From IMG/VR virus record IMGVR_UViG_2648501222_000009: a DNA stretch of 20,000 bases. The stretch is one strand, 5' to 3'. Positions 875 through 15,150 of this stretch are shown in pieces (position 1 is the stretch's first letter; each line of letters opens with the position of its first letter). The translations under genes and the position numbers were made by a program. The stretch comes from an uncultured virus (IMG/VR IMGVR_UViG_2648501222_000009). Taxonomy: Duplodnaviria > Heunggongvirae > Uroviricota > Caudoviricetes. The notes beneath the pieces are model-generated. The model was given only the letters and a program-made list of their open reading frames with translations. It was not told the DNA's origin and did no database searches.

Positions 875-885
875 GCGTCCTGCTC

Positions 886-1329
886 CTATTCCTGATGCCC
901 GTAATAATTGAAGCTGTATCGCGTTGTGCGAGGTTTTACGCCTTCACCTACAGCCCACGCCTGCGAATACTCTATTAAGCTTGTCATGCGCTTTTTACCC
1001 ATGTTCGCGGTGCTCTCTCTCGCCAGCGGTACAATCTCGCCTTCTAGCCCCGTAATTAACTTCCCGTCCTTGCCGGTTGCCTTTGCGTGCCCGGAGACGA
1101 AAATACATTTCCAGTCCTGCAACTCCCACGTACTGCCAGCCCATACAATGCCCTGCTCTGCTACGTTGCCGCACAGCGCATGAAACATGTCATTTTGGGG
1201 AAGGGTTCGCTTTGGATCTGAGATTTTTACTTCGAGGGGGAATTCTTCGTTTAGCGGGAGACTGTCGAGTGCTGCCTTAAGGTTTCTGAGTATCTGCGCA
1301 TTCCTGAGTAGGAATGTCTGTTTTTGCAT
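886..1329 (-). CDS. ninB: NinB/Orf-family recombination protein
   Basis: MQKQTFLLRN...KRTLPQNDMFHALC...WKCIF...STANMGKKRMTSLIEY typical of NinB/YbcN; GGAGG RBS. Confidence 0.9.
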   Translation of the reverse strand: MQKQTFLLRNAQILRNLKAALDSLPLNEEFPLEVKISDPKRTLPQNDMFHALCGNVAEQGIVWAGSTWELQDWKCIFVSGHAKATGKDGKLITGLEGEIVPLARESTANMGKKRMTSLIEYSQAWAVGEGVKPRTTRYSFNYYGHQE

Positions 1330-1338
1330 TTAGCCTCC

Positions 1339-1596
1339 CTATTCCTCCGGCCTGCGATACATGAAAACAACCAAGCCGCCTTTTGTTGTAATCTTCAGGT
1401 CATCTCCGGGCTTCATGTCGCCAAGCTCATAGGCATCATACAGCTCGTTTATCGCCGCCTGCTTACGGTCTTTTTCCTTACGCTTTAATGCCTTCCTGAA
1501 TATCAGATTCAGAAACCACTCGACTGATTTTGCGATAATCCAAAAATAACCCACTGCCATCAGGCCGATGGTCGCGTATTTGATAATTTCATCCAT
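1339..1596 (-). CDS. Membrane-anchored phage protein, DUF4752-like
   Basis: N-terminal hydrophobic helix, basic stretch, MKPGD...KGGLVVFMYR C-terminus. Confidence 0.6.
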   Translation of the reverse strand: MDEIIKYATIGLMAVGYFWIIAKSVEWFLNLIFRKALKRKEKDRKQAAINELYDAYELGDMKPGDDLKITTKGGLVVFMYRRPEE

Positions 1597-1599
1597 CCC

Positions 1600-1797
1600 C
1601 TACTCCTTCTCACATTGTGGTGCTCTGCGGTTCCAGGCGGTGATTGCTTCATCCTCATCAAACCGCTTAACCCTCACGCCGCATTCGTCACAGGCAACAC
1701 CGTACAACGTCAGGCCGTGGCTGCTGGGGCTGTGTATCGTGATATCAACACATCCGCAAAACGGACACGGTTTAAGTTTCTGTGTTTTCTCTGTCAT
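1600..1797 (-). CDS. Lar-family restriction alleviation protein
   Basis: LKPCPFCG...C-x2-C...EAITAWNRR signature; start placed at MTEKTQ (1797). Confidence 0.8.
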   Translation of the reverse strand: MTEKTQKLKPCPFCGCVDITIHSPSSHGLTLYGVACDECGVRVKRFDEDEAITAWNRRAPQCEKE

Positions 1798-1798
1798 A

Positions 1799-1876
1799 TC
1801 AGCATTCCCACCATCCATATTTTCTTTTTGCGGAAGATATAAGCTCCCGCCAAACATCCTGTGTTTTCTCTGTCAT
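1799..1876 (-). CDS. Mini-ORF MTEKTQDVWRELISSAKRKYGWWEC (25 aa), possibly a remnant
   Basis: Translated by hand; start coupled to the upstream stop (TGATG); shares its first 18 nt with the lar gene. Confidence 0.35.
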   Translation of the reverse strand: MTEKTQDVWRELISSAKRKYGWWEC

Positions 1877-1980
1877 CACTGCACCCTCACAAAGCTGTAT
1901 GGGCGATTGCACTTAATGCAGGTCACTTCGCCAATCATACGGGCACGTCTGCCGCACCCTAAGCATATAAATTTACACAT
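1876..1980 (-). CDS. Small Cys-rich Zn-ribbon peptide MCKFICLGCGRRARMIGEVTCIKCNRPYSFVRVQ (34 aa)
   Basis: Translated by hand; GGAGGAG RBS; CxxC...CxxC; stop/start overlaps on both sides. Confidence 0.55.
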   Translation of the reverse strand: MCKFICLGCGRRARMIGEVTCIKCNRPYSFVRVQ

Positions 1981-2161
1981 CACTCCTCCGGTGGTTGTGG
2001 CTTCCAGTGGGTTACATTGCCGATTATGTGATTAAAAAAACCAGATCGATGAATAAATTCTGATTCAGTAAAAAGCAATCGATCACCCACCCATCTTTAT
2101 CCCTGACCATCACATTCGTATATCGGCCAGGCATTCTTTCCGAGCACTTAATCCATTCCAT
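1980..2161 (-). pseudogene. DUF551-family gene, frameshifted
   Basis: MEWIKCSERMP N-terminus in one frame; the conserved VTHWKPQPPEE C-terminus is in another frame, joined across T homopolymers at ~2034-2074. Confidence 0.7.
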
Positions 2162-2357
2162 CTTCATCTCCTTTTGGCGGTGTCTGGTACGGCAGTCTGC
2201 TGCGAACTCCGGCCACCCATGCCCGATATCTTTTTTCAATTTCTTTGTGTGCATAATTCCAATACCCGAATTGATCTTCCCGCCTGAAGCTCGTGATGAG
2301 ATTGACGGGGCGGCCAGTTTCTTCCGCACACCACTTTTCAAAATCCGTTGGTTCCAT
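2148..2357 (-). CDS. Hypothetical phage protein (MEPTDFEKWCAEE...)
   Basis: GGAGGA RBS, ATG at 2357; FEKW...RYRAWVAG pattern common in nin-region proteins. Confidence 0.7.
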   Translation of the reverse strand: MEPTDFEKWCAEETGRPVNLITSFRREDQFGYWNYAHKEIEKRYRAWVAGVRSRLPYQTPPKGDEDGMD

Positions 2358-2375
2358 AATCAAAAGTCCTCCCTG

Positions 2376-2543
2376 TTAATTCCCGTAACTTACTTTCAGA
2401 CTGCCGGATATCAATACGACCACAATCAGCAGCCATCCCCACCCGTCTTTACCGTGGTAAATCAGGAAGGCCACAGATAAAAACCCGGTAATCGGAACAA
2501 GACAAACAAACAAGGTTCCAAGAATGTCTCTCAGGTATTCCAT
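2376..2543 (-). CDS. Small two-TM membrane protein (55 aa, MEYLRDILGTLFVCLVPITGFLSVAFLIYHGKDGWGWLLIVVVLISGSLKVSYGN)
   Basis: Translated by hand, absent from the ORF track; AAGGA RBS; two hydrophobic segments joined by HGKDGWGW. Confidence 0.7.
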   Translation of the reverse strand: MEYLRDILGTLFVCLVPITGFLSVAFLIYHGKDGWGWLLIVVVLISGSLKVSYGN

Positions 2544-2630
2544 AATCAAAAGTCCTTCTGTCTTGGGTTATGCCGCGCCGGTGGTTCGGCACGCTGATAA
2601 ATCCCCGGACACTTCCCCCGCAGGAAGCAT

Positions 2631-2897
2631 CTACCGGATATTAATGTTTGATTTTTTACTTGCTACCTGTATGAAATAACGCAATAAATCGACTGTCATC
2701 CATTGCTTTTCTGTGAGGTGGTATACCCATGAAATCAGTTTCTCTGCTGTATTGCAGACCTCAATATTGATTTCATAATTATTAATTTCGTCGTCACTTA
2801 GACGAAAAACGAAGTAGTTACCTTCAACTGTTAAAATCTTGCTCAATTCTTCGTATTTGGCTTTAACTTCACCGGTATCCATTTGTTTTAAACTCAT
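2631..2897 (-). CDS. Hypothetical protein (88 aa), AT-rich
   Basis: ATGA overlap with the helicase stop; AGGAG RBS. Confidence 0.7.
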
Positions 2898-4261
2898 ACA
2901 TCTGCTCCTTTAAATCTGCGTTGTGCTGGCTGGCTGCTCTGCTGACAGATATTTGCGGCCATAGCCTGGTCCGTATCGAGAAAGTGCCCGTCTTTGAATA
3001 GCTGATACACGGTCCCTAATTTCCCGAATCGGTTCTTTGTTACGATAATTTCAGCATAGTTCGCTGCGGGGGAGTTCTCATTATACACGCCGTCCCGGTA
3101 CAGCATGATGATGGCATCCGCATCCTGCTCAACGCTTCCTGAATCGCGAAGGTCAGCATTCGTCGGGCGCTTGTTTGGGCGTTTTTCCACATCACGGGAT
3201 AACTGGCTGAGAGAGATAACCGGGGTCCGCAGGTCCTTAGCCATTGCTTTCAGGCTTGCTGAAATGTGACCAATAGCCAGGTCATTACGCTCTGCCTTTG
3301 GTTTTTCAATCAGGCCGAGGTAGTCGACAAGGATAAGAGATAAATTCGGATTGGCCCGCTTGTGCCGACCTGATATCGCACGGATTTGTTCGACCGTTAA
3401 TTTACTGGCATCGACAACCCAAACATCGAGATCCACTATGCGGCCCATGCCGACGGTAACCTTTGTCCAGTCTTCCTGGTCCATCTTCGCCGGATTACGC
3501 AGGGATGAAACCGGCATGCTTGCGGCCCCTGCAATCTGACGCTCGATAATCTGCTGAGAGTCCATTTCCATTGAGAAAATCAAAACGCCTTTCTTCTGGC
3601 TGGTCCCGCGAATGGTCTGTGAAGCAACGCCTTTGGTTATTCTCAGCGCCAGCTCTGTCTTACCCATGCCGGGCCGGGCCGCAACAATAACCAGGTCAAC
3701 AGGGTTTATCCCGCCAGTAATATCATCAAGGTCCGGGATGCCTGTTTTCAGCGTGTCAGACTCATCACCATTCTGGACCCGCTTTTCAAGCATCTGCGCG
3801 TAGTCTTCGGCTATTTCCTTCAGGTGAACGGGCCGTATCTCATCCTGCGGGGCCCGGATTTCAGATGCCTTTGCCAGAAACTGGTCCATTGCCTCAGTCG
3901 CTGCGTCGACGGTCCCGTGTTCGATTTGTCCGCGCGCAGAGTCCATCAGCTCAATCATCTTCCGGCGGCAGTGAAGGTCCATAACCATCTTCGCGTAGCC
4001 TTTCAGGTTGGCAGCGCTCGGACAGTTTTTCGCGGCTTCCATCACGTTGCTGAACTGATCACCCATTTCCTCGGCAACCATCAGAACATCAATCAGCCCA
4101 CGGGCCTTCGCCTGCTTCCTGATAACCTCATAGGTCCTGCGGCAAAATCCGGACCCGAAGAATTCAGGCTCCATCGTTGCGAGAACATCACTGGCATCCT
4201 GTGTTAATCCGCTAATCAGCAGGCCACCGATAACACTCGATTCAACTTCAAAATTAATCAC
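2894..4261 (-). CDS. DnaB-like replicative helicase (P22 gp12 type)
   Basis: Walker [48 protein letters not shown] start at 4261 after GGAGG. Confidence 0.95.
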
Positions 4262-4263
4262 GA

Positions 4264-5100
4264 CTACCTCCCTGTGAGACTTGGTTTTCCTTCGCGGACC
4301 GCTGTGAGCGTGGTTTCTCTCGTCAGATAGTCGATATCTGCGGTCCATCCCGTATCGCTGTCACCAAAATAAAACGGCTTAGCCAGTTTGACGAAGGCCC
4401 GCACATAGGACCGCCATCCGTCGACGTTTGGAGTTGCCAGTTTCGGTATTATTTTCTTCAGGTCACGCTTTCGCTTCTCAGTGACATCGATAGCGTGAGG
4501 CAGGCGATCACCGACTTCCTCGTTGTAGGCAATGAGATATTCGTCGTAATTGATTTTCACTGCCCGGCGCTTTTTAGGTTTAACCAACCCTTCCGCTTCA
4601 CCCCCAACGGGGGTATGGGGGTTAGTTTCTTTCTTTTCTTTTGTAATAGTTTCTTTTGTGTGACTCTGTTTTGGTGACAACGCTGTCACCGTTTTGGTGA
4701 CACTTTTTGTCACTGTTTTGGTGACATTGTCACCAGAGTAGTGACACCCTGTTATTTCCCACTCACTCACGTTCTTGTTTGGTCCGATTCTCGGTCCATC
4801 CATAACGACTACACGCATTGCTATCAGCTCGTTTTTCGCCTTGTTAACTTTCTGCCGTGGCAGGTTGGTCAGCTCGCTTAACTGACTGTCTGCAATGCGG
4901 TCCGACTTCTTGCCGAAGCCGTAAGTTTTCCGGCAAATAGCGTGTGCTACCTTGGCCTGATTTTTTGTTAAGTCAGCGCCTATCAGGGCCTCATACAGAG
5001 CATTTGCAAGTCTGGTGTACCCATCATCAAGGTCTGCCACCGTTGGCCTCTCTTGCCGTCGTGCGGCTCCAAAGTCAGCGTATGCAACGTTACTGTTCAT
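4264..5100 (-). CDS. Phage replication initiation protein O
   Basis: [14 protein letters not shown]...[13 protein letters not shown]...[10 protein letters not shown] (Phage_rep_O domain); internal iterons. Confidence 0.93.
4621..4746. repeat. Replication origin: four 19-bp iterons plus an adjacent T-rich tract
   Basis: TGTCAC-N7-GTGACA at 4684-4702, 4708-4726 and 4728-4746; degenerate copy at 4661-4679; T-rich 4621-4660. Confidence 0.88.
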
Positions 5101-5260
5101 GCCGTTTACCTCCGGTCAGTTCTTCCCTATGGGCTTTCCGCAATAAAGCATCGTTAAAAGCCGCCCTGAGTGCTTTCGCGCCTTTCTCAGTGACACTCCG
5201 TGTCTCGTTGTATTCGGCGATGTTTTTGTGCACAGCGCTGTAATTAAACCGTTGTTTCAT
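5090..5260 (-). CDS. Small hypothetical protein between cII and O (56 aa, MKQRFNYSAVHKNIAEYNETRS...)
   Basis: Translated by hand; GGAG RBS; stop overlaps the start of O. Confidence 0.65.
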   Translation of the reverse strand: MKQRFNYSAVHKNIAEYNETRSVTEKGAKALRAAFNDALLRKAHREELTGGKRHEQ

Positions 5261-5326
5261 GTATAATTACTCCGTTATTTGCTGCATCAAAAAAGGGGAA
5301 ACCGTATATTCCACTTTCCTAAATAA

Positions 5327-5342
5327 CTGGTTATTGATACAG
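5327..5342. promoter_or_regulatory. LexA (SOS) box-like site at the presumed oop promoter
   Basis: CTG-GTTATTGATA-CAG fits CTG-N10-CAG; same position as the LexA box of lambda pO. Confidence 0.6.
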
Positions 5343-5413
5343 TGTGATTGTTAAGTTAAATCGCTAAGTCGATTTGATCCTGAGCCTCGGTTACCGCCGG
5401 GGCTTTTCTTTTT
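5343..5413 (+). ncRNA. oop: oop-like antisense RNA to the cII 3' end, with intrinsic terminator
   Basis: Hairpin AGCCTCGG-TTACCG-CCGGGGCT followed by TTTCTTTTT (5383-5413), antisense to cII; 5' end approximate. Confidence 0.6.
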
Positions 5414-5691
5414 GGTGTTCTGATATGTCCGAGCATCTGAATCAGCGCCCGGGCCTCATCACCCTGCAACACAACCATGTCTTCCCCACCCTCATATTCG
5501 ATAGCCGCCAGTAAACGAGCGCAGCGCTGTATGAAGCTGAGATTTTCTTTATGTTGTGGTGACTGCCACCGGGAGATTTGAGATTCGTGTATGCCCGTTC
5601 TGTGCGCGATTTCCCGCGCGCCGGTTGAGTGAATCCCTTTGAGGATTTTTGTTTCGATTTCACGAAATTTGCGTTCGTTTGATAATTCCAT
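5356..5691 (-). CDS. cII: CII-family transcriptional activator
   Basis: IETKIL...GIHESQISRW...KRKAPAVTEAQDQIDL parallels lambda CII; position after cro. Confidence 0.88.
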   Translation of the reverse strand: MELSNERKFREIETKILKGIHSTGAREIAHRTGIHESQISRWQSPQHKENLSFIQRCARLLAAIEYEGGEDMVVLQGDEARALIQMLGHIRTPKRKAPAVTEAQDQIDLAI

Positions 5692-5701
5692 AATTCATAA
5701 T
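5669..5701 (+). promoter_or_regulatory. pRE-like CII-activated promoter
   Basis: TTGC-GTTCGT-TTGA (5669-5682; lambda TTGC-GTTTGT-TTGC), then -10 CATAAT at 5696-5701 with lambda-like 13-nt spacing; overlaps the cII start. Confidence 0.7.
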
Positions 5702-5787
5702 GTCCTTATTGAGATACAGTTACTCGCTCACTTCCTGTGAGGTGTTGCTGTGTTGAAATAAATGTAATTTGGTGGGTTCTGCCTCTT

Positions 5788-5848
5788 CGGTACATTGTCT
5801 CCTTGGAGATACGCCGCCCGCCCGACAATATGCTGTGCCGTTCAGCTA
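5788..5848 (-). ncRNA. putR: putR-like cis-acting antiterminator RNA
   Basis: Minus strand reads GCTGAACGGCACAGCATATTGTCGGGCGGGCGGCGTATCTCCAAGGAGACAATGTACCG just after cro; shares GAACGGC, GTCGGG, CGGCG and CAATG with the putL copy. Confidence 0.75.
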
Positions 5849-5864
5849 CTGATTTTTTGTTGTC

Positions 5865-6092
5865 TTATGCAGCAAGTTCAGGCCAGTTTTTTTCCCAATC
5901 TTCTGGATATAAATGCTGGCGCTTAACCACTGAGTTGCTGTTTTTTTCAATGAGCACACATAGCTCTGTGCCGAGTTTTGTGCCCTTTGAAATTGCCTTT
6001 CTCAGGTATCCGATAGTTGTTCCGCATTTTTTTGCGAAAGACTCTTGTTCTGATACTGAGAGCGCATTTAGGAAAATCCGTAATTGTTCCAT
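5865..6092 (-). CDS. cro: Cro-like (YdaS family) repressor
   Basis: MEQLRIFL...FAKKCGTTIGYLRKAIS...LYPEDW..WPELAA; AAGGA RBS; divergent from cI. Confidence 0.9.
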   Translation of the reverse strand: MEQLRIFLNALSVSEQESFAKKCGTTIGYLRKAISKGTKLGTELCVLIEKNSNSVVKRQHLYPEDWEKNWPELAA

Positions 6093-6105
6093 GCGTTGTC
6101 CTTGT

Positions 6106-6180
6106 TTACCTATGCGTGAGATAAATATACCTATAGGTATACATTTAATCAATACCCATAGGCAATTTACCGAAAGGTAA
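6106..6180. promoter_or_regulatory. OR operator cluster: four 14-bp WTACC-N4-GGTAW-like sites
   Basis: TTACCTATGCGTGA 6106-6119 (weak), ATACCTATAGGTAT 6127-6140 (perfect palindrome), ATACCCATAGGCAA 6152-6165, TTACCGAAAGGTAA 6167-6180; same motif at OL. Confidence 0.85.
6124..6152 (-). promoter_or_regulatory. pR promoter
   Basis: -35 TTGATT (6152-6147), 17-bp spacer, -10 TATATT (6129-6124); operator overlaps the spacer. Confidence 0.8.
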
Positions 6181-6194
6181 TTTTGTCGGATGAT
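6166..6194 (+). promoter_or_regulatory. pRM-like promoter, predicting a leaderless cI mRNA
   Basis: -35 TTTACC (6166-6171), 17 bp, -10 GATGAT (6189-6194); the ATG at 6201 sits at the expected +1. Confidence 0.5.
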
Positions 6195-6200
6195 TTAGGT

Positions 6201-6899
6201 ATGAATGCTGAAAACGATTTATTTGAGAAAAGAAGGCAAAAGCTATCCGAACTTGTTTCCCAATATGGGACGCAGGAAGAGTTTGCTCGCGCTATAGGGA
6301 AGGACAAATCTTACGTATCCAGAATGCTTTATCCTCCAGAAAAGAAGGGATATAAGCGTATAGGGGACAAAATGGTTCTTGCTATTCAAGCTGCTTTGGG
6401 TCTGCCTCATGGCTGGCTGGATGGGATTGCAGGCACGGATATTCCGGCGCCGTCTCCAAGCACATCCTACAAAGTGGAAATCCTCGATGTTGAAGCCAGC
6501 GCTGGCCCGGGCGTTATGGTTTTAGATGATTTTATTGAAACCATCACGGCAATTGAGTATTCAGCGGAAGAAGCCAAGAGGCTGTTTGGCGGAAGGCCAG
6601 CTGATACCGTTAAGATGATCACTGTGAAAGGTGACTCTATGGCGGACACCTTCGAACCACGCGATCAGATATTCGTTGATATGACCGTTAACCATTTTGA
6701 CGGTGACGGAATTTATGTCTTCATACTGGACAATCAGCTCTACATTAAGCGCCTGCAAATGCAGTACAAGCGCCTTGCTGTGATATCAGATAATCCAAAA
6801 TATGAAACATGGCACTTGAATGAAGAGTCTATTGATGGCGTATTCATACAGGCAAAGGTACTCGTGAGTCAGTCTATTAAGTATAAATTCCACGGCTAA
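6201..6899 (+). CDS. cI: CI repressor (HTH + S24 autopeptidase)
   Basis: N-terminal HTH, ASAGPG cleavage site, catalytic GDSM and IKRL motifs. Confidence 0.95.
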   Translation: MNAENDLFEKRRQKLSELVSQYGTQEEFARAIGKDKSYVSRMLYPPEKKGYKRIGDKMVLAIQAALGLPHGWLDGIAGTDIPAPSPSTSYKVEILDVEASAGPGVMVLDDFIETITAIEYSAEEAKRLFGGRPADTVKMITVKGDSMADTFEPRDQIFVDMTVNHFDGDGIYVFILDNQLYIKRLQMQYKRLAVISDNPKYETWHLNEESIDGVFIQAKVLVSQSIKYKFHG

Positions 6900-6923
6900 C
6901 AGTGGCCTGACGACACGTTTTAG
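6900..6923 (+). pseudogene. Relic 3' end of a lambda-type cI gene
   Basis: CAGTGGCCTGACGACACGTTTTAG = QWPDDTF*, compared with the lambda CI C-terminus QWPEETFG*. Confidence 0.65.
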
Positions 6924-7006
6924 GGTGTGGTTGACATTCTTTACTTCAATACTTCTTGGTTTGCCGCACAAAATTGATAATGACACTACAGGTGATGTCA
7001 TATAAT

Positions 7007-7312
7007 ATGTCCAGAACACAAGATGTAATCAACGAGCTAGTTAAGCGTAAAAAGTCCATATCTTGTAATGGCAGCAAAGGATTGTTGTTGTACTTAGAAT
7101 CCTTGGGGTTTAAGCACAAGGAGGGGAAGACGGTAGGTCACAGAATTTTCACCCACCCTCAGCTTAGCTCTATATCTGACTACAAGACTCATTCGGTAGA
7201 TTGTGGACACAAGCCGAACAGAGACATGAAGCACGCGTACATAACAAACACATTGCGCGTACTTAATCAGTACAAGGATGAACTAGAGGAAATTGAAGCC
7301 AATGACAAATAA
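7007..7312 (+). CDS. hicA: HicA-family toxin (mRNA interferase)
   Basis: LESLGFKHKEGKTVGHRIFTHP...SVDCGH...MKHAYI matches the HicA pattern including the catalytic His; start uncertain (6995 or 7007). Confidence 0.8.
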   Translation: MSRTQDVINELVKRKKSISCNGSKGLLLYLESLGFKHKEGKTVGHRIFTHPQLSSISDYKTHSVDCGHKPNRDMKHAYITNTLRVLNQYKDELEEIEANDK

Positions 7313-7880
7313 AGTCTTTGATCCTGAAAAATATACAATATCAGTAAAGAAAACCACCGAAGATGGTGAGGTGGTTTTTGTGGCTAGCGTCGCCGAGCTT
7401 CCTGATATCAGAGAGTATGCAGATACTGCTGACTTCGCCAGAGAGTTAGCAATTGATTCAATAGCCACCGCATATGAAGTTTTTGCTGAGCAAGGGATGA
7501 TTTTCCCTAAACCAAGTGATGATTCTCAAATTGAAAGTGTCAGCGGAAGAGTAACTTTGCGTCTGCCAAAATCAATCCACGCCAAATGCATAAAAGCAGC
7601 GGAAAATGATGGCGTCAGTTTGAATTCATACTTAACAACCTGCATAACAAGCTACTCTGCACAGAATGAAATTAAAGGCGAGATTCGCAGCCAGTTCACC
7701 CAGGTGAAGGCGCTAATAAAGTCTCACGGCAGATCAGATACCTATAGCGGAAGAATGGTTGATAGAGGTGGGAACTCTTGGGTTTCATCACTGGATGCAA
7801 AATTTTCTAAAGAGAGTGACACCCTGGAAAGGGATAGTGAAATTCAATTATCTGGCTTTTATTCGGAGTTCTATCAATGA
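7302..7880 (+). CDS. hicB: HicB-family antitoxin with a long C-terminal extension (candidate ChAD tail)
   Basis: YTISV...FVASVAELPDI..YADT..A..LA.D.I N-domain, SGRVTLRLPKSIH...AAENDGVSLNSYL RHH domain, then ~75-80 extra residues. Confidence 0.88.
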   Translation: MTNKVFDPEKYTISVKKTTEDGEVVFVASVAELPDIREYADTADFARELAIDSIATAYEVFAEQGMIFPKPSDDSQIESVSGRVTLRLPKSIHAKCIKAAENDGVSLNSYLTTCITSYSAQNEIKGEIRSQFTQVKALIKSHGRSDTYSGRMVDRGGNSWVSSLDAKFSKESDTLERDSEIQLSGFYSEFYQ

Positions 7881-8317
7881 GTATCATGTCGTCAGTCATA
7901 TTAAAATCCGCAACGGTCACTTCTAACACCATGGATTTTGTAAGGCCAGATATTGATGTCGCCAAAGTGGCTGTAAAATTTAAACTGCACAACGCCTTAG
8001 AAGAAGATGAAGAGTGCAAATATTGCAGGTTAGCATTCTCCGGTGATGTTATTGGGAAGTTAACCGATGAAGATGAACCTGATTTCGATTTAGTTGACCA
8101 TGAGTTTAAGTTTAGCATCTCCGTTGATTATGAATTTGAAATCAACGATCGAGAGAAATATCTATCACTAACTAAAGATGAAAAAGCTGAATTGTGTGCA
8201 AATTTAGTTTATCTAGATTTTAGAAGGCGCATGACGCTAAATGCAAATAACATAGGGATAAGCAGCTTTAGAATGCCGCTATCGTTAATGACTCTAACAA
8301 AGAAATCAGAAAAATAA
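7877..8317 (+). CDS. Putative SecB-like chaperone (TAC third component)
   Basis: 146 aa, acidic, alternating beta-strand patterns, then helix ANLVYLDFRRRMTLNANNIGISSFRMPL resembling the SecB C-terminal helix/PxL segment; ATGA-coupled to hicB. Confidence 0.62.
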   Translation: MSIMSSVILKSATVTSNTMDFVRPDIDVAKVAVKFKLHNALEEDEECKYCRLAFSGDVIGKLTDEDEPDFDLVDHEFKFSISVDYEFEINDREKYLSLTKDEKAELCANLVYLDFRRRMTLNANNIGISSFRMPLSLMTLTKKSEK

Positions 8318-8322
8318 CCCCC

Positions 8323-8347
8323 AGCCCTCACCGCGAGGGCTTTTTTG
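8323..8347 (+). terminator. Rho-independent terminator ending the cI-hicA-hicB-secB-like transcript
   Basis: AGCCCTC-ACCGC-GAGGGCT followed by TTTTTT. Confidence 0.9.
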
Positions 8348-8452
8348 TGCCTGAAATTCCCCCGCCTGTGTGATCTGCGTCCAATCGTGACGATTTTTTG
8401 AAAATAAATTACCTGTTAAATCAATCAGGTAAACTTTTCTGCGTCATTTTGT

Positions 8453-8494
8453 TTACCTATGGGTATTTACATTTAAATTACCTGTGGGTATATT
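8453..8494 (+). promoter_or_regulatory. OL operators and pL promoter
   Basis: Operators TTACCTATGGGTAT 8453-8466 and TTACCTGTGGGTAT 8478-8491; -35 TTTACA 8466-8471, 17 bp, -10 TATATT 8489-8494. Confidence 0.88.
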
Positions 8495-8525
8495 TATATC
8501 CATCGAAGGGCAACCGGAGATAACC

Positions 8526-8601
8526 ATAGTCGAACGGCGCGACTTTAAACCATGCGTCGGGCACTCGGCGGAACCAGCTAGTTAAGTGGTCAATGAGATG
8601 C
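8526..8601 (+). ncRNA. putL: putL-like cis-acting antiterminator RNA (HK022 type)
   Basis: ATAGTCGAACGGCGCGACTTTAAACCATGCGTCGGG is nearly identical to HK022 putL as I recall it, with a compensatory GTC/GAC pair; second stem GCACTC-GGCGG...CAAT-GAG-A-TGC; directly after pL. Confidence 0.85.
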
Positions 8602-8644
8602 AATTTCATAAGAAATATTCCTTACCCGACGAGGTGTATTTCAA

Positions 8645-9148
8645 ATGAAATTCAGCAACAAATACGTGAAATCAAACTTTAAAAACATCGGTTATGACAA
8701 TACCAACGGATGCTTATTTAACACAGAGACTGGTGACCCATACACGGCATGGATAGACCACAGGGGATACAAAAGGCTAAACCTTCCTGTGGTTGGCACT
8801 GTAATCGAACACAGGGCTATATGGGCGGTGGTTCATGGCAGGTGCCCTGATATGCATATCGACCACATAGACAACGACAAACTTAATAACAGAATCGAAA
8901 ACCTTCGTGTTTGCACACACAACCAAAACCAACATAACCAAGGGATACGGGCAAGCAACAAAAGCGGATACAAGGGTGTCAGCTGGATGAAGTCAGTAAG
9001 GAAATGGCACGCACAAATTTGCTGCAATAGCAAAGTTACCCACCTCGGATTATATGCCTGCAAAATCGACGCAGCGAAAGCCTATGACCTGGCGGCAAAA
9101 GAGCTTCACGGCGAATTTGCATGGTTAAACTTCCCGCATCAATCGTGA
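8645..9148 (+). CDS. HNH homing endonuclease with C-terminal AP2 domain
   Basis: HRAIW...IDHIDNDKLNNRIENLR...NQHN plus SGYKGVSW...KWHAQI...LG...AAKAYD.AA..LHGEFA.LNFP. Confidence 0.93.
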   Translation: MKFSNKYVKSNFKNIGYDNTNGCLFNTETGDPYTAWIDHRGYKRLNLPVVGTVIEHRAIWAVVHGRCPDMHIDHIDNDKLNNRIENLRVCTHNQNQHNQGIRASNKSGYKGVSWMKSVRKWHAQICCNSKVTHLGLYACKIDAAKAYDLAAKELHGEFAWLNFPHQS

Positions 9149-9194
9149 ACGGGCAACACTGGCGGGATGGGTTGTGTGAGCGCAGATACTAATT

Positions 9195-9219
9195 ATAGCC
9201 CATTCGGTGAGTGGGCTAT
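9195..9219. terminator. Hairpin between convergent genes, possible terminator
   Basis: ATAGCCCATTC-GGT-GAGTGGGCTAT; no clear U-tract. Confidence 0.5.
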
Positions 9220-9225
9220 GGTGAG

Positions 9226-9729
9226 TTAACCAGACTTCAACTTAGAAACCGGAGATAAATATACCGAACCACATGAATTGCATTTAAGGGTAGCAATATG
9301 AGCGCCAATACCAGGGATAGTTTTAACCGAATTAACGCTAAGTGCAGACGCCTTTCCAGACTCATAACAGTGAGCACAAAAGTAGGAATATTTGCTAATG
9401 GAGTTTTCGGGAAGATTCTTACGATAGATCGTCGTACCAAGCATAGGGCTCCACGCTTCATAATCAACGGACTCTCTAAGCCATTTCTCTTTGTCAGCAT
9501 TTTTTGCATTTGCTTCACTGAGAGACTCCTCAAGGAGCATTATCGACTTCTGCTTCTCATTTATGATCTCTAAAAGCTTAGTGTTTTCCATTTGAATATC
9601 ATGAAGTTTTCTATTTATTTCATAGACTGCATTGTCAATAACAGCCTGATTTTTAGCGTCATTAACGGCGTTAAATAGATTAAGGCTTTCTCTGATAGCA
9701 GCAATAGCCGCTGGAATTTCACCGAACAT
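9226..9729 (-). CDS. Moron gene: coiled-coil plus C-terminal Zn-ribbon protein, function unknown
   Basis: 167 aa, AT-rich, opposite to the pL operon; FCAHC...LKCNSC; TATAAT upstream (9759-9764, minus strand). Confidence 0.8.
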   Translation of the reverse strand: MFGEIPAAIAAIRESLNLFNAVNDAKNQAVIDNAVYEINRKLHDIQMENTKLLEIINEKQKSIMLLEESLSEANAKNADKEKWLRESVDYEAWSPMLGTTIYRKNLPENSISKYSYFCAHCYESGKASALSVNSVKTIPGIGAHIATLKCNSCGSVYLSPVSKLKSG

Positions 9730-9793
9730 AATTAACTTCCATATTGTGGGGGTGAGTTAATTATAACTGTTTTCTGTTGTGGGGGCACGACGA

Positions 9794-9825
9794 AACCACC
9801 TCGCCTGATGTGGTTAAAAGCAGGC
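9794..9825 (+). other. Predicted H-type RNA pseudoknot
   Basis: Stem 1 AACCAC(9794-9799)/GTGGTT(9810-9815); stem 2 GCCTG(9803-9807)/CAGGC(9821-9825); loop 3 AAAAG. Confidence 0.55.
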
Positions 9826-9829
9826 ATCC

Positions 9830-9935
9830 AGTCAGTATTGGGATTGGTGCAGAAGATGGCGTGACATAAGCCACTTTCGGGAGATGTCCGGATCATGATT
9901 TAGTCACATGACTGTGCCAATCACCAATACTGACT
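9830..9935 (+). other. Long stem-loop, possible RNase III site or structured RNA
   Basis: AGTCAGTATTGG-GATTGG-TGCAG pairs with CTGTG-CCAATC-A-CCAATACTGACT; inner GTGAC/GTCAC. Confidence 0.65.
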
Positions 9936-9979
9936 AACCATATTCCAGAGTGAGTTCTGGATCACAACGAGGAATAAAC

Positions 9980-10603
9980 ATGACACGGTTAACCAATAAC
10001 ATCAAATCAGAAATCATCAGAAATGCCTTGGTAAAAGCGGGCATTCAGGAAGAAAAAGAGCTGTTAAGAGCAGAAAAAAGCACATTGGCGAACGATGTCA
10101 GAATAGCGGCTCTCGGTGGCGCTGAAAATGCTAAGAAAATTGATGATAAATACGCGACAGCGCTAGCAATTGTAAAAGAATTGAAAAGTGATGTTGATGA
10201 ATATATCCACATCGGTAACGCCACGGATGATGAAATATATCCGGCATTTGGAGGTCAGCGCACAAGGCTTCGTTATGGGCGTGACGACCAAGGAGCGGTA
10301 TTGCGTCTTCTCACTCCGCAAAACAGCAAATGCTTATTCCCTGCTGACCATGAGCTAAGCAAGCGGTTTGCTCAAATCGTTGATAAAGAATCCAGCATTG
10401 AGAAAAAAGAAGCTGAAATAAAAGCGAACGTAAAAGCCGCTCTGGACTCGGTGACTACGATTAAAAAACTTATTTCAGTATGGCCGGAAGTAAAAGAAAT
10501 TCTCCCGGAAGGTGAGCAGGAGCAACAGGCATCACTGCCTGCGGTAAAAGTCGAAAATCTTAATTCTCTTATTGGCCTGCCAACAGAATCAGAAGCCGCA
10601 TGA
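9980..10603 (+). CDS. Nmad5-family (nucleotide modification associated domain 5) protein
   Basis: MTRLTNNIKSEIIRNAL...LDSVTTIKKLISVWPEVKEILP...LNSLIGLP; GAGGA RBS. Confidence 0.75.
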   Translation: MTRLTNNIKSEIIRNALVKAGIQEEKELLRAEKSTLANDVRIAALGGAENAKKIDDKYATALAIVKELKSDVDEYIHIGNATDDEIYPAFGGQRTRLRYGRDDQGAVLRLLTPQNSKCLFPADHELSKRFAQIVDKESSIEKKEAEIKANVKAALDSVTTIKKLISVWPEVKEILPEGEQEQQASLPAVKVENLNSLIGLPTESEAA

Positions 10604-10673
10604 CTAACACCCCGCAGCGGGGATAACTATTCGGACATCACGTAGCACAGGGAAGTGCATAGGAGGAAGTAAC

Positions 10674-10838
10674 ATGCCGATGTTTAAAGTAACGTGCAAA
10701 TGGAACGGGAAGCCATGGGAAAAGGATATCGAGGCCGAGGATGAAGCCGACTGTACAGAGCACATGTATTTGTTCGGTGTGCTGATTGGCAAAGCCGACA
10801 TCCAAGACCTTCAGATCACCGAAATCACACAGAAGTAA
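10674..10838 (+). CDS. Small acidic hypothetical protein (54 aa, MPMFKVTCKWNGKPWEKDIEAEDEADC...)
   Basis: Translated by hand; strong AGGAGG RBS. Confidence 0.75.
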   Translation: MPMFKVTCKWNGKPWEKDIEAEDEADCTEHMYLFGVLIGKADIQDLQITEITQK

Positions 10839-10866
10839 CCCACCCTATAAATAAACGGAGTTAATT

Positions 10867-11808
10867 ATGGCAAACGAACTGGTCGTTATCGAACCAGCGA
10901 CAGCGCTCGACCTTTTTACAGCGCCGGATAAGGTTCAGGTACTGCTGTCTGGTATCCGGGAGAGAGCACTCGCAGAACAGGCATTACTCGATACTGATTT
11001 ATCGAAAGCCAAGAATCGCGATGCTATCAAATCACTGGCCTACAAAGTTACGCAGTCAAAAACATACATCGACAAAGCTGGAAAGGTTGTCGTTGATGAG
11101 CTGAAAGAGCTGCCGAAAAAAGTGGATGCCAGTCGCAAGCAGTGCCGGGATGAACTCGACGCACTGAGCGAAGAAATCCGCCGGCCGGTAACAGCATGGG
11201 AGGATGCGGAAAAAGCACGTGTAGCAGCGGAAGAATTAGCTCGCCAAATTGAGCGTGACCACGAAGAAGCGCTGCAGATGAATGAGTTGCATGACCTGCG
11301 TAAAGCCGAAGAAGAACGCAAACGCATTGAGCATGAAAACGAAATCAAGCGTCAGGCGGCAGAACAGGCACGAATCGAAGCTGAACAAAAAGCACAGCGT
11401 GATCGCGAAGCGGCGGAGCTGAAAGCCAAACAGGAACGTGAAGCTGCGGAATTAAAAGCACGACAGGAAGTCGAGGCAGCAGCTAAGCGCGAACGTGAGG
11501 CCAGAGAGGCGCAGGAACGCGCAGAACGTGAAAAGCAGGAGGCTATCGCGAAGGCTGAGCGTGAAAAGTTGGCTGCAGTTGAAGCGGAGCGGCGCAAGGC
11601 AGAGGAAGCCGAACGCACACGACTGGCGGAGATTGAGCGCCAGAAGCAGGAAGAATTAAAGCGCCAGGCGAACAAAGAGCATCAGCATAAATTTAACCGC
11701 GAGGCTTTACAGGCACTGACTGAAGCAGGATTTGACGATAAAACCGCAACAAAATTCCTTGAGATGGTGATTAAAGGCGAAGTCCCTCACCTCTCAATGA
11801 ACTACTAA
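10867..11808 (+). CDS. Phage coiled-coil protein (Ala/Glu/Arg-rich, often mis-annotated as TolA-like)
   Basis: AIKSLAYKVTQSKTYID..GK..VDELKELPKKVDASRK N-domain, long EAR-rich coil, KGEVPHLSMNY end. Confidence 0.85.
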   Translation: MANELVVIEPATALDLFTAPDKVQVLLSGIRERALAEQALLDTDLSKAKNRDAIKSLAYKVTQSKTYIDKAGKVVVDELKELPKKVDASRKQCRDELDALSEEIRRPVTAWEDAEKARVAAEELARQIERDHEEALQMNELHDLRKAEEERKRIEHENEIKRQAAEQARIEAEQKAQRDREAAELKAKQEREAAELKARQEVEAAAKREREAREAQERAEREKQEAIAKAEREKLAAVEAERRKAEEAERTRLAEIERQKQEELKRQANKEHQHKFNREALQALTEAGFDDKTATKFLEMVIKGEVPHLSMNY

Positions 11809-11847
11809 CCCACCCTATCCCACCTAGGGATATCAGCAGGTAATCAC

Positions 11848-11982
11848 ATGACTATCAATCAGAACGTTTTCCGTCTGGCGCAAGCACAGGCGCGGGTAGC
11901 TATACGCCAGAAATGCGATGACATCTGGTGGTTAGCAATGGAATTACTCAGAGAAAGTTACGGGAGGCAGGCATGCAGATAA
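11848..11982 (+). CDS. Kil-like host division inhibitor peptide (44 aa, MTINQNVFRLAQAQARVAIRQKCDDIWWLAMELLRESYGRQACR)
   Basis: Translated by hand; size, R.AQ..A.(I/V)A....W..A pattern and position upstream of the recombination genes. Confidence 0.55.
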   Translation: MTINQNVFRLAQAQARVAIRQKCDDIWWLAMELLRESYGRQACR

Positions 11983-12218
11983 CTTGCGACCACTTCAGCG
12001 TTTCCAGCAGAACCGGCGAGTCGGTAATCACTACCCACGGAAGGACATTTATCAACGGCCTTGATTCTGAGGCTATAGGAAATAGCGATGCCGACATACA
12101 GGAGTTAGTCGGTAACTGGATGCGGAATATGGATGAGCAATCAGCAGTTGAGACGCTACGGAAAGCAGGGCTCAACATGGACATTATCGCACAGCTTGCA
12201 GGAAGGAGCGCGGCATGA
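11973..12218 (+). CDS. Hypothetical protein (81 aa)
   Basis: GGAGG RBS, ATG at 11973, ATGA-coupled to the next gene. Confidence 0.7.
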   Translation: MQITCDHFSVSSRTGESVITTHGRTFINGLDSEAIGNSDADIQELVGNWMRNMDEQSAVETLRKAGLNMDIIAQLAGRSAA

Positions 12219-12424
12219 GCGCATACGCAGCACAGGATGCTCAGGAAGAGCGGAGGCTGGAGCATGCAGCATGGCAGGATGCCGTGGACATGGAAGTTCA
12301 GCAGATAACATCGGATGTTTTCTTTGGTGTGGATCAGTCAATTTTAGACAAATTCAGTGACGATGCGCAGGACGCGCTTTTTAACTCGCTGTGCAAACAA
12401 ATAAAAAGGAGATTCTTTTCATGA
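12215..12424 (+). CDS. Hypothetical acidic protein (69 aa) in the gam/abc position
   Basis: AAGGAG RBS; coupled to bet. Confidence 0.7.
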   Translation: MSAYAAQDAQEERRLEHAAWQDAVDMEVQQITSDVFFGVDQSILDKFSDDAQDALFNSLCKQIKRRFFS

Positions 12425-13158
12425 GTAACTCACTGGTGTCGATGGCTGGCTCTCTCGCCCAAAAGCTTGATCTGGCAATCGACGAGAAAGACCTGATTAA
12501 CACACTGCGGTCTACGGCATTCAAGGCTGAGGCCACAGACCAGCAGTTTCTTGCGCTTCTCATTGTCGCCAATCAGTACAACCTGAACCCATGGACAAAA
12601 GAGATTTACGCTTTCCCAGACAGGACGGGAATCGTTCCTGTTGTCGGCGTTGATGGATGGGCTCGGATTATTAACGGCAACAAAAATTTTGACGGCATGG
12701 AATTCGAAATGGATGACGAATCGTGCACATGCAAAATTTACCGCAAAGACCGGAATCACCCGACATCAGTAACGGAATACATGAGTGAATGTAATCGGGG
12801 AACCCAGCCGTGGAAATCTCACCCTAAACGCATGCTGCGGCATAAAGCCATGATTCAGTGTGCACGTCTGGCATTTGGGTTTGCTGGAATTTACGACCAG
12901 GATGAAGCAGAGCGCATCACAGAAAATACACCGGCCGGGGTTATCAACGGACAGGAGAGCCATGAAAACCGGCCTGAGCTCATCGCACGCTGTGAAGAGG
13001 CTGCAAAAAACGGAATGGAAGCATTTAAGCAGCTATGGACAGAGCTTACTCCCGAAGAAAGGACGATCATCGGGTCAGCAGATAAAGAGCGAATCAAAAA
13101 TAGTATCGCCATTGATGCCGAATACACTGAGGTGACAGATGGAGCAGAGAACGGATGA
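12421..13158 (+). CDS. bet: Bet (Red-beta) single-strand annealing protein
   Basis: ALLIVANQYNLNPWTKEIYAFP..GIVPVVGVDGWARIIN...PWKSHPKRMLRHKAMIQCARLAFGFAGIYDQDEAERI. Confidence 0.95.
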   Translation: MSNSLVSMAGSLAQKLDLAIDEKDLINTLRSTAFKAEATDQQFLALLIVANQYNLNPWTKEIYAFPDRTGIVPVVGVDGWARIINGNKNFDGMEFEMDDESCTCKIYRKDRNHPTSVTEYMSECNRGTQPWKSHPKRMLRHKAMIQCARLAFGFAGIYDQDEAERITENTPAGVINGQESHENRPELIARCEEAAKNGMEAFKQLWTELTPEERTIIGSADKERIKNSIAIDAEYTEVTDGAENG

Positions 13159-13735
13159 GTGGTTTGCGGCCAGGCTAGGGAAAGTAACGGCAAGCAATAT
13201 TGCAAAAGTAATGGCGAAAGGCGGCGGAGCGACAAGGAAGAATTATATGGCTCAGTTGGTTTGCGAAACACTGACAGGCCAGAAGGAAGAGACCTTTAAA
13301 TCAGCAAGTATGGAGCGCGGTAACGAGCTTGAGGCGGTAGCAAGGGAAATGTACTGCCTTAACGAATTCGACGCCACGGTAACGGAAACCGGCTTTATTC
13401 AGCACCCCACCATTGAACTTTTCGGCGCCAGCCCTGACGGTCTTGTAAACGATGACGGATTAATCGAAATCAAGTGCCCGAACACGGCAACTCATATTGA
13501 GACCATAAAAACCGGAAAGCCAAAGCGTGAATACATCCTTCAGACGCACGGACAGATGATGTGCACCGGACGCAGATGGTGTGACTTTGTCAGCTATGAT
13601 AACCGGCTTCCGGAAAATCTCGCCTATTTCAAAACACGGATTGTTTTTGATGAAGCACTTGCCAGTGAAATAGAAACGGAAATTCGCGAATTCACGAAAG
13701 AACTCAGGGAAGAAATCGAGTTTTTAACCAAATAA
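13139..13735 (+). CDS. exo: YqaJ/lambda-type exonuclease
   Basis: MEQRTDEWFAARLGKVTAS, GASPDGL, IEIKCP, WCDFVSYD. Confidence 0.95.
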   Translation: MEQRTDEWFAARLGKVTASNIAKVMAKGGGATRKNYMAQLVCETLTGQKEETFKSASMERGNELEAVAREMYCLNEFDATVTETGFIQHPTIELFGASPDGLVNDDGLIEIKCPNTATHIETIKTGKPKREYILQTHGQMMCTGRRWCDFVSYDNRLPENLAYFKTRIVFDEALASEIETEIREFTKELREEIEFLTK

Positions 13736-13749
13736 ATATGGACTAAATT

Positions 13750-14010
13750 ATGGGCGACATGGGCGATATATTCCGCGCAATGCGTGAAGATGCCAAAGAA
13801 AGGAAGCAGCAGAGATTAAAAGAAAATACAGGGAAGTTATCAGGGGTTGATATTCCGTTTACACAGGATGGAAGCGGAACAATTCATTTTTCAACACCAG
13901 CCGGAAAGGTTCTGTTTTATCCCACCACAAACAAAATTCAGCACAAGAAAAAGGTCACTCGCGGCAATCTGGAAAAGGCTGTCGCACTGGCTAAAAGTCT
14001 TGGTGCATAA
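13750..14010 (+). CDS. Hypothetical basic protein (86 aa)
   Basis: ORF MGDMGDIFRAMRE...FYPTT.K; co-directional within the operon. Confidence 0.7.
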   Translation: MGDMGDIFRAMREDAKERKQQRLKENTGKLSGVDIPFTQDGSGTIHFSTPAGKVLFYPTTNKIQHKKKVTRGNLEKAVALAKSLGA

Positions 14011-14053
14011 CCCCACCGTTTCAGGATGAAGCGTAATGCAGGGATGCTGAGGC

Positions 14054-14082
14054 TTGACGGCTATGATTGGTTGCGGTAGATT
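14054..14082 (+). promoter_or_regulatory. Sigma70 promoter of the c4/antirepressor unit
   Basis: -35 TTGACG 14054-14059, 17 bp, -10 TAGATT 14077-14082. Confidence 0.75.
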
Positions 14083-14163
14083 GCGAGTAGGTGCTGAACA
14101 CACCATCGAAAGCGGTCTCCACACCCGATAGCCATGTGGATTTTTTATGTCCATTATTCAGAT

Positions 14164-14248
14164 ATGGTCGGGTAGCGAGCAGAACATAAAACACCCGCAA
14201 GGGGAAAACTGCTGGCCGACTTTCGACGGTGTTCAAGTACCCGACCGC
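14164..14248 (+). ncRNA. C4-type antisense RNA (P1 c4 / P4 CI / IsrK-like)
   Basis: Closing stem GGTCGGGTA(14166-14174)/TACCCGACC(14238-14246); the segment CTTTCGACGGTGTTCA is complementary to upstream TGAACACACCATCGAAAG (14095-14112) and downstream TGAACAAATCGAAAG (14270-14284, at the RBS). Confidence 0.8.
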
Positions 14249-14293
14249 CCTGCTGAACACAGGGAAATCTGAACAAATCGAAAGGACATAGCC

Positions 14294-15103: not shown

Positions 15104-15112
15104 TTCTATATC

Positions 15113-15138: not shown

Positions 15139-15150
15139 TCGGAATATACA

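What the first reader, a model, noticed from the sequence alone, without database searches (positions are those of the whole stretch)
7007..8347. Candidate HicA-HicB-SecB toxin-antitoxin-chaperone (TAC) anti-phage system in the rexAB slot
Seen: three overlapping, AT-rich genes sit directly after cI and are closed by one terminator: a HicA-like toxin, a HicB with ~75-80 residues beyond its RHH domain, and a 146-aa acidic protein with a SecB-like strand/helix pattern. Known: in TAC systems (Mtb HigBA1-SecB, HigBAC, CmdTAC, MqsRAC) the antitoxin carries a chaperone-addiction tail, and several of these act as phage sensors; lambda keeps rexAB at this locus. Inference: this is a HicAB-based TAC expressed in the lysogen that aborts superinfecting phages when a phage protein titrates the chaperone. 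I know of no experimentally characterised HicAB-type defensive TAC.
Basis: partly seen in the sequence, partly recalled or inferred. Interest (0 to 1): 0.88.

Follow-up and report, generated by a model that had tools for sequence, protein, structure and literature searches.

The report
Prophage HicAB toxin-antitoxin-chaperone cassette
A dormant bacterial virus carries a three-gene toxin, antitoxin and chaperone set at the spot where its relatives keep anti-virus defences; this kind of set is already known, but whether this toxin type protects against viruses appears untested.

Summary
A lambdoid prophage (near-identical copies in Morganella) has hicA (7007-7312), hicB with a 74-residue tail (7302-7880) and a third gene (7877-8317) behind cI, closed by a terminator. 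The third protein folds as SecB (top match the M. tuberculosis TAC chaperone, Z 11.2); the first folds as HicA.

Among 107 related hicB loci, 71 of 86 with long tails have a SecB-like neighbour, against 0 of 21 with short tails. The tree gives too few independent contrasts for a formal test. The cassette moves intact between phages with unrelated cI genes. Behind the same 25-nt junction other phages carry RexAB, BstA and a HigBA-type TAC.

It is therefore very likely a toxin-antitoxin-chaperone system (~0.9), probably anti-phage (~0.75). Activation by a phage protein titrating the chaperone is inferred by analogy (~0.55).

Not found in my searches: a defence test of any HicA TAC, this chaperone clade (missed by four HMM libraries), and a Cys/His-conserved HicA subfamily.

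The parts
6201..6899 (+). cI repressor (context; probably drives read-through transcription of the cassette in the lysogen)
   Evidence: Pfam Peptidase_S24 E 1e-19 and HTH_3; phrog_4; divergent cro- and cII-like genes to the left. Read-through is inference.
6900..6923 (+). Junction sequence directly after the cI stop; reads QWPDDTF-stop, the same C-terminus that ends the cI of relative L004; likely a shared recombination joint
   Evidence: Translation; L004 cI ends with this peptide; the 25-nt sequence occurs exactly in 25 viral loci followed by 17 different first-gene clusters
6981..7000 (.). Imperfect palindrome TGACAC-N8-(G/A)TGTCA, probable HicB (RHH) operator
   Evidence: Within 4 mismatches upstream of hicA in 23 of 30 same-clade loci and 27 of 38 sister-clade loci; 0 of 28 and 0 of 32 in downstream control stretches; single copy in the window. 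Binding not tested.
7007..7312 (+). HicA-family toxin, 101 aa, probable catalytic H45 (codon 7139-7141), extra N-terminal helix, conserved C20/H50/C66/H68
   Evidence: AF2 pLDDT 93; top four VIA matches are HicA-type chains, Z 6.2-5.4, rmsd 2.1-3.5 A; 12 of 36 scanned relatives hit Pfam HicA_toxin, 4 above cut-off; residue counts
7302..7655 (+). HicB antitoxin core (residues 1-118): N-terminal HicB domain and RHH
   Evidence: Pfam PF05534; phrog_497 over 11-116; 152 homologues
7656..7880 (+). HicB C-terminal extension (residues 119-192), candidate chaperone-addiction (ChAD) element with 8 aromatic residues
   Evidence: Mean identity across 121 homologues falls from 0.33-0.72 per block in the core to 0.08-0.14 in the tail; co-occurs with SecB-like genes; aromatic residues listed
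7877..8317 (+). SecB-fold chaperone, 146 aa, of a clade not recognised by Pfam, PHROGs, NCBIfam or PADLOC
   Evidence: AF2 pLDDT 86; Foldseek top ten are all SecB or SecB-TA chains, best 5MTW E 1.5e-5, TM 0.67/0.71; VIA Z 11.2 (5MTW) and 9.7 (E. coli-type SecB, 5JTL)
8323..8348 (+). Intrinsic-terminator-like hairpin closing the cassette
   Evidence: 7-pair stem with T run; kept in L001-L003 and L008
6899..8427 (.). Extent of the exchangeable cassette
   Evidence: 99.6% and 99.0% DNA identity to L001 and L002 over about 6899-8427, with no match across the window's cI or the DNA right of 8427; their cI proteins are 26% and about 21% identical to the window's

Best explanation
[quoted passage not shown] Steps: (1) it is transcribed with cI and/or from its own promoter, repressed by HicB at the palindrome (inferred). 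(2) HicB's 74-residue tail makes it aggregation- or protease-prone unless a SecB-fold chaperone, probably a tetramer, binds it; chaperoned HicB holds the HicA RNase inactive (folds shown here; dependence inferred from the validated M. methanica HicAB TAC; odds about 0.9). (3) On infection HicB is lost and HicA cleaves RNA, halting translation and aborting the phage (inferred from the slot; odds about 0.75). (4) The trigger is most likely a nascent phage structural protein that outcompetes the tail for the chaperone, as in HigBAC and CmdTAC (analogy only; odds about 0.55).
For: SecB fold for C; HicA fold and invariant His for A. Tail and chaperone co-occur: 71 of 86 long-tailed vs 0 of 21 short-tailed loci. 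Searches started from the other two genes agree: chaperone profile, 1 of 401 genomes, and that hit is a full A-B-C set; toxin profile, 4 of 401 genomes, all four with tailed HicB plus a SecB-like gene. 28 of 30 viral hicB loci carry this chaperone clade; 16 of 24 same-clade loci scanned lie behind a phage repressor. Behind the identical junction, 15 of the 23 loci without this cassette carry a PADLOC-matching gene family, including RexAB (1), BstA (3) and a HigB-HigA-SecB set (3). All three genes show far fewer non-synonymous than synonymous changes against L004 (pN 0.12-0.18 for A, B core and C; 0.35 for the tail; pS about 0.8). Chaperone and tail diverge faster than toxin and core (median identity to 17 relatives 26% and 11% vs 48% and 52%).
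Against: No functional data. No PADLOC model matches any of the three proteins. The tail-chaperone association is not phylogenetically significant: the tree is poorly resolved, with only 2 independent pairs on supported branches, never discordant but p about 0.5. 15 of 86 long-tailed loci lack a recognised SecB-like neighbour. The sister clade lies mostly in non-viral contigs (38 of 39), so the architecture is not phage-specific. A prophage HicAB (no chaperone) in P. putida gave no phage defence (PMC12894663). 8 of 24 same-clade loci are not behind a repressor. Faster divergence of chaperone and tail could be relaxed constraint.
Confidence: 0.68

Rival explanations
1. A genuine TAC, but it serves prophage maintenance or a host stress response (proteotoxic stress titrates the chaperone), not phage defence.
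For: TACs were first described as stress-responsive (PMC3581621). The sister clade is mostly chromosomal and environmental. One copy lies between two IS elements.
Against: It alternates with RexAB, BstA and a HigBA-type TAC behind one junction. The P. putida prophage HicAB2 did not stabilise its prophage either.
Confidence: 0.17
2. An anti-phage TAC triggered indirectly: phage shut-off of host transcription or translation, or direct binding of a phage protein to HicB, depletes the antitoxin, and the chaperone is not the sensor.
For: Labile antitoxins can act this way (general knowledge, recalled). No trigger was identified here and no complex could be modelled.
Against: Both TACs whose triggers were read here are activated through the chaperone. 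The chaperone is the fastest-diverging folded part.
Confidence: 0.2
3. HicAB is an ordinary two-gene TA and the SecB-like gene is an independent passenger.
For: 15 of 86 long-tailed HicB loci have no recognised SecB-like neighbour.
Against: 4-nt gene overlap; 0 of 21 short-tailed loci have the gene; in all 32 same-clade loci the chaperone gene directly follows a tailed hicB, though these loci were found with HicB; the two loci found from the chaperone side (L007, L118) also show the full set.
Confidence: 0.05

Closest known systems
Mmet-TAC, HicAB-SecB(TA) of Methylomonas methanica MC09 (Metme_2813/2812; Bordes et al. 2016, PMC5105189)
   Same: Same three gene types and order; ChAD given as residues 119-159, the same boundary as here; shown to need its chaperone. 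Its printed forward primer reads MSAKLR by eye, like the sister-clade toxins, so it probably belongs to the sister clade (inference; its sequence was not fetched).
   Different: Tail 41 vs 74 residues; chaperone clades nearly unalignable (sister vs this clade: hhalign probability 11%); no phage defence in the passages and section read; here in a prophage immunity region.
HigBAC of E. coli NT1F31 (Mets et al. 2024, bioRxiv 10.1101/2024.02.24.581848)
   Same: TAC in a lambdoid prophage downstream of cI, in the RexAB locus; long aromatic-containing ChAD; anti-phage, triggered by lambda gpV through the chaperone.
   Different: Toxin is HigB (RelE family), antitoxin is HTH-type HigA. A HigBA-type chaperone from the same slot is only distantly related to this clade (hhalign probability 2-34%). 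No HicA/HicB mention in that main text.
CmdTAC / PD-T4-9 (Vassallo et al. 2024, PMC11618068) and MqsRAC
   Same: [quoted passage not shown]
   Different: Toxins are an mRNA ADP-ribosyltransferase and MqsR; the PADLOC PD-T4-9_C model does not match gene C; HicB here ends in FYQ, not the LAA ClpXP tag of CmdA.
M. tuberculosis HigBA1-SecB(TA) (Rv1955-1957; PDB 5MTW)
   Same: Best structural match for gene C; the sister-clade profile also hits it by sequence (E 1.1e-6).
   Different: 6-8% sequence identity; different toxin and antitoxin families; chromosomal.
Canonical two-gene HicAB (B. pseudomallei 6G26, S. pneumoniae 5YRZ, Y. pestis-type HicA3B3 4P78)
   Same: HicA fold with GH motif; HicB with DNA-binding domain.
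   Different: This HicA is about 100 aa vs 58-70, with an added N-terminal helix and near-invariant C20, C66, H68, H50; HicB has a tail; a third gene is present.

Membership tests
TAC systems | Toxin, antitoxin and chaperone genes in that order in one operon, antitoxin and chaperone overlapping | tested here: met
   11-nt and 4-nt overlaps, one terminator-like site after gene C
TAC systems | Third protein has the SecB fold | tested here: met
   predicted model; top ten Foldseek rows all SecB-type; VIA Z 11.2, rmsd 3.8 A over 130 residues; first unrelated row Z 5.7
TAC systems | Antitoxin carries a variable C-terminal extension absent from chaperone-less relatives | tested here: met
   74-residue tail; 0 of 21 short-tailed loci have a chaperone gene. 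Phylogenetic independence not established
TAC systems | Toxin neutralisation requires the chaperone; deleting the tail removes the requirement | not testable with these tools
   Shown for the M. methanica HicAB TAC, not for this one
TAC systems | Chaperone is a tetramer that binds the tail through aromatic residues | not testable with these tools
   No complex model available; the tail has 8 aromatic residues
HicAB toxin-antitoxin family | HicA dsRBD-like fold with conserved catalytic His | tested here: met
   (top four rows HicA-type; Z 6.2, rmsd 2.2 A over 61 residues; Z is modest as expected for a small domain; Foldseek alone gave E 0.24-0.45); H45 in 104 of 106 relatives; transitive Pfam hits
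HicAB toxin-antitoxin family | HicB antitoxin with N-terminal toxin-binding domain and RHH DNA-binding domain | tested here: met
   Pfam HicB above cut-off; phrog_497 over residues 11-116
HicAB toxin-antitoxin family | Palindromic operator upstream of the toxin gene | tested here: met
   Conserved palindrome at 6981-7000; protein binding not tested
HicAB toxin-antitoxin family | HicA is a toxic RNase neutralised by HicB | not testable with these tools
   Needs expression assays
Anti-phage TACs (HigBAC, CmdTAC, MqsRAC) | Located in a variable prophage defence locus | tested here: met
Anti-phage TACs (HigBAC, CmdTAC, MqsRAC) | Toxin of the HigB, CmdT or MqsR class; proteins match those systems' models | tested here: not met
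   Toxin is HicA-type; no PADLOC hit better than E 0.035. It may work like them but is not a member of any of the three
Anti-phage TACs (HigBAC, CmdTAC, MqsRAC) | Protects against phage; triggered by a phage protein binding the chaperone | not testable with these tools
   Needs phage challenge

The most novel reading that the evidence does not exclude
This is a fourth class of anti-phage TAC: a prophage-specialised chaperone clade acts as a fast-diversifying phage sensor, co-varying with its tail, and is wired to a HicA RNase with a Cys/His metal site (C20, C66, H68 plus H45 or H50) unlike the solved HicA chains it matched. In close relatives the SecB gene is replaced by unrelated 84-111-residue proteins behind equally long tails, so chaperone addiction may not be limited to SecB. 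Defence alone is about 0.75 likely; the full reading is much less so.
Probability: 0.2. Interest if true: 0.78.

Novelty: new variant of a known kind. Interest (0 to 1): 0.52.

Why it matters
If confirmed, it adds a HicA-type RNase to the toxins used by anti-phage TACs and supplies a family of natural chaperone alleles (16-36% identical to the window's, apart from one at 71%) for working out how SecB-like sensors choose phage triggers. The clade is missed by Pfam, PHROGs, NCBIfam and PADLOC, so such systems are under-counted, including in Morganella, Proteus and Providencia prophages, where they could narrow the host range of therapeutic phages. The basic design is already published, so a specialist would find it a welcome extension, not a surprise.

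Tried and rejected
Family scans of genes A and C: no meaningful hit in Pfam, PADLOC, PHROGs, NCBIfam; of 31 chaperone-clade members only 1 touched Pfam SecB, at E 0.042; the clade profile found nothing in PDB by sequence; the toxin profile gave only a weak 1WHZ hit, E 0.2. Atlas feature searches gave leads only: SecB on 23% of one cluster, HicA on 11-15%. Isolated-phage and plasmid collections: no match to the cassette or to A, B or C beyond short flanks and distant two-gene-type HicB hits in 29 records. Promoter scan: 6 sites vs 6.4 expected, so no own promoter can be called. Complex prediction of chaperone with tail was not available, so binding and tetramer state are unmodelled. Cys/His geometry could not be measured because model coordinates are not returned. 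Tree test of tail-chaperone co-evolution: underpowered. Expression: contigs from 4 RNA-labelled runs cover the cassette (X2 tiles 7062-8323; X7 has one contig from inside cI to 8310), but the runs were found with this stretch, are contigs and may hold DNA, so they show nothing about transcription. Third genes of L059, L069, L117 and the 84-aa family could not be linked to SecB by profile. Earlier scan findings: none relevant in four look-ups. The HigBA-type set in L205 is not claimed to be NT1F31 HigBAC; its residue numbers do not match those in the paper. The DefensePredictor HicA system is a 472-aa fusion protein, not a TAC. The window's own genome is not held, so prophage completeness was not checked.

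Full report
Setting. The window holds the early region of a lambdoid prophage: nin-type genes, DnaB-like helicase, O, cII, cro, cI, then recombination genes, excisionase and integrase at 16547-17725. The window's own assembly is not held. Named members of the third protein's 90% cluster are from Morganella morganii, with relatives in Providencia and Proteus; L008, titled M. morganii subsp. sibonii, is 99.6% identical over the cassette.

Observation. Three overlapping ORFs of 101, 192 and 146 aa follow cI and end at a terminator-like hairpin. They are 40.0% GC against 46.7% for window 1-17725. Against relative L004, non-synonymous differences per site are 0.12 (A), 0.17 (B core), 0.35 (B tail) and 0.18 (C), with synonymous sites saturated near 0.8, so they are real genes under selection.

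Gene C is a SecB-fold protein. No HMM library names it. I aligned it with 30 relatives from two searches (25 of 27 hits used, two long proteins dropped) and folded it: pLDDT 86, four strands followed by helices. The top ten Foldseek rows are all SecB or the M. tuberculosis TAC chaperone (best E 1.5e-5, TM 0.67/0.71). An independent search over 48,161 chains gave Z 11.2 for 5MTW and 9.7 for SecB, then 7.8 for a streptococcal protein of unknown function and 5.7 for the first clearly unrelated fold.

Gene A is a divergent HicA. Its model (pLDDT 93) matches HicA-type chains in the top four VIA rows (Z 6.2-5.4; that 1WHZ is a HicA is recalled); Foldseek ranked the same chains first but not significantly. 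Of 36 upstream genes of related loci scanned, 12 hit Pfam HicA_toxin and 4 pass the cut-off. Among 106 of 110 loci with a recognisable toxin, H45 is kept in 104, C20 in 101, H50 in 101, C66 in 104 and H68 in 105. A metal site or disulfide is a hypothesis; geometry could not be measured. One search on HicA with zinc and cysteine listed nothing relevant by title or abstract.

The HicB tail behaves like a ChAD. Across 121 homologues the first 118 residues are conserved and the rest is not. I fetched 110 hicB loci (80 of 106 genome hits, 30 of 30 viral hits) and dropped 3 (one cut, one split, one with 193 nt downstream). Of 86 loci with tails of 40 or more residues, 32 have this chaperone clade next door, 39 a second clade, 7 an unrelated 84-96-aa family and 8 none recognised; of 21 with shorter tails, none has any of these. 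The second clade's profile hits the M. tuberculosis chaperone at E 1.1e-6. The split persists after dereplication at 70% (29 of 38 vs 0 of 9). The clade profiles were built from these same loci, and kin are not independent: a tree of 76 cores needs 9 tail changes but gives only 2 independent pairs on supported branches, never discordant, not significant. Searches from the other genes agree: chaperone-first, 1 of 401 genomes, a full set between two IS copies; toxin-first, 4 of 401 genomes, all four full sets.

Regulation. A palindrome at 6981-7000 recurs before hicA in both clades and not in control stretches; it is probably the HicB operator. The promoter scan found nothing above chance and no terminator between cI and hicA, so co-transcription with cI is plausible but unshown. 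RNA runs were uninformative.

The slot. The stretch 6899-8427 is 99-99.6% identical in two phages whose cI genes are unrelated to the window's. It begins with 24 nt that read as the end of another cI type. That junction occurs exactly in 25 viral loci, followed by 17 different first-gene clusters. Two are this system. Of the other 23, 15 carry a gene family matching a PADLOC model at E below 1e-5 (one representative per cluster scanned; 52 of 73 clusters): RexA-RexB in 1, BstA in 3, a HigB-HigA-SecB set in 3, and candidate or partial matches in 8; 8 have no hit. Of 24 same-clade loci whose upstream gene was scanned, 16 lie behind a phage repressor; the rest lie behind a large methyltransferase gene (3) or near tail, terminase, lysis or integrase genes (5). 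A second allele (L118) sits behind an identical cI C-terminal domain with toxin 63%, core 57%, tail 5% and chaperone 27% identical. This is strong circumstantial support for defence, not proof.

Literature, and what I saw of each paper. Sala et al. (PMC3581621; passages) list HicB with RHH as one of the TAC antitoxin communities. Bordes et al. (PMC5105189; passages and section 8; supplements not read) show that the M. methanica HicAB TAC needs its chaperone and that its residues 119-159 act as a transferable ChAD. Mets et al. (bioRxiv 10.1101/2024.02.24.581848; abstract, passages, supplementary legends) place HigBAC downstream of cI in the RexAB locus and show triggering through the chaperone; their main text never mentions HicA or HicB, but I could not see Figure S1, which surveys other TAC-like loci in Enterobacteriaceae and might include this one. 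Vassallo et al. (PMC11618068; passages) give the CmdTAC mechanism. Gerdes (PMC10865869; abstract, outline and term search) proposes HicA in defence and has no mention of SecB or chaperones. DefensePredictor (PMC13092281; passages and supplement rows) validated a fused HicA-domain protein. A P. putida prophage HicAB gave no defence (PMC12894663; passages). A Morganella TA survey (PMC13227991; passages) lists hicAB without chaperones. PMC8790059 and PMC12619734 (passages) were irrelevant. Nine searches showed no phage test of a HicAB TAC; most hits were seen only as listings, and the library lacks most subscription journals.

Verdict. Shown: the genes, both folds, the variable tail, its association with SecB-like genes, the conserved palindrome, cassette mobility and the shared slot with known defence systems. 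Inferred: chaperone dependence (about 0.9), anti-phage function (about 0.75), chaperone-titration trigger (about 0.55). It is a TAC by every feature testable here, works most likely like HigBAC, and is not a member of HigBAC, CmdTAC or MqsRAC. New variant of a known kind; interest 0.52.

Noticed in passing
L012:4554-4844, L039:4581-4835, L051:988-1266, L060:4579-4833, L063:4545-4799, L067:3301-3555, L070:4567-4821: An 84-96-aa family is coupled (gap -8 to +14 nt) behind HicBs with 55-83-residue tails, in place of a SecB-like gene. No Pfam, NCBIfam or PDB match and no profile link to either SecB clade. Possible non-SecB partner for a tailed antitoxin.
   Followed up: partly
L069:4555-4890, L081:4573-4902: A second unrelated third gene (109-111 aa) behind HicBs with 66-69-residue tails; no family match.
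   Followed up: partly
L059:2247-2753, L117:4534-4974: Third genes that look SecB-like by eye but match neither clade profile; they were counted as non-SecB.
   Followed up: partly
window 9226-9729 (-): 167-aa gene (phrog_1244, unknown function) antisense to the early operon; near-identical in L003, where it follows the cassette without the HNH gene. Second accessory-gene candidate.
   Followed up: no
window 8645-9148 (+): HNH-AP2 homing endonuclease-like gene just after the probable pL promoter (8466-8494); absent at this place in L003.
   Followed up: no
L193-L217: Eight of 25 loci behind the same cI junction carry genes with no PADLOC match (L196, L198, L199, L207, L208, L209, L210, L214); L207 and L136 have a ClpP-like SDH-type protease, L199 and L208 share a two-gene set. 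Candidate undescribed defence genes.
   Followed up: partly
L007:519-1839: A complete HicA-HicB-chaperone set of this clade flanked by two copies of an IS element, as in a composite transposon.
   Followed up: no
L098, L101, L107: The same system lies directly behind a gene of over 1,000 codons matching a large DNA methyltransferase family (phrog_15406), not behind a repressor.
   Followed up: no
window 17952-19662 (-): Beyond the integrase: DUF932, CbtA-type toxin and antirestriction genes, a second mobile element next to the prophage end.
   Followed up: no
window 15508-16125 (+) and 9950-10603 (+): MT-A70 methyltransferase and Nmad5 genes in the early operon.
   Followed up: no
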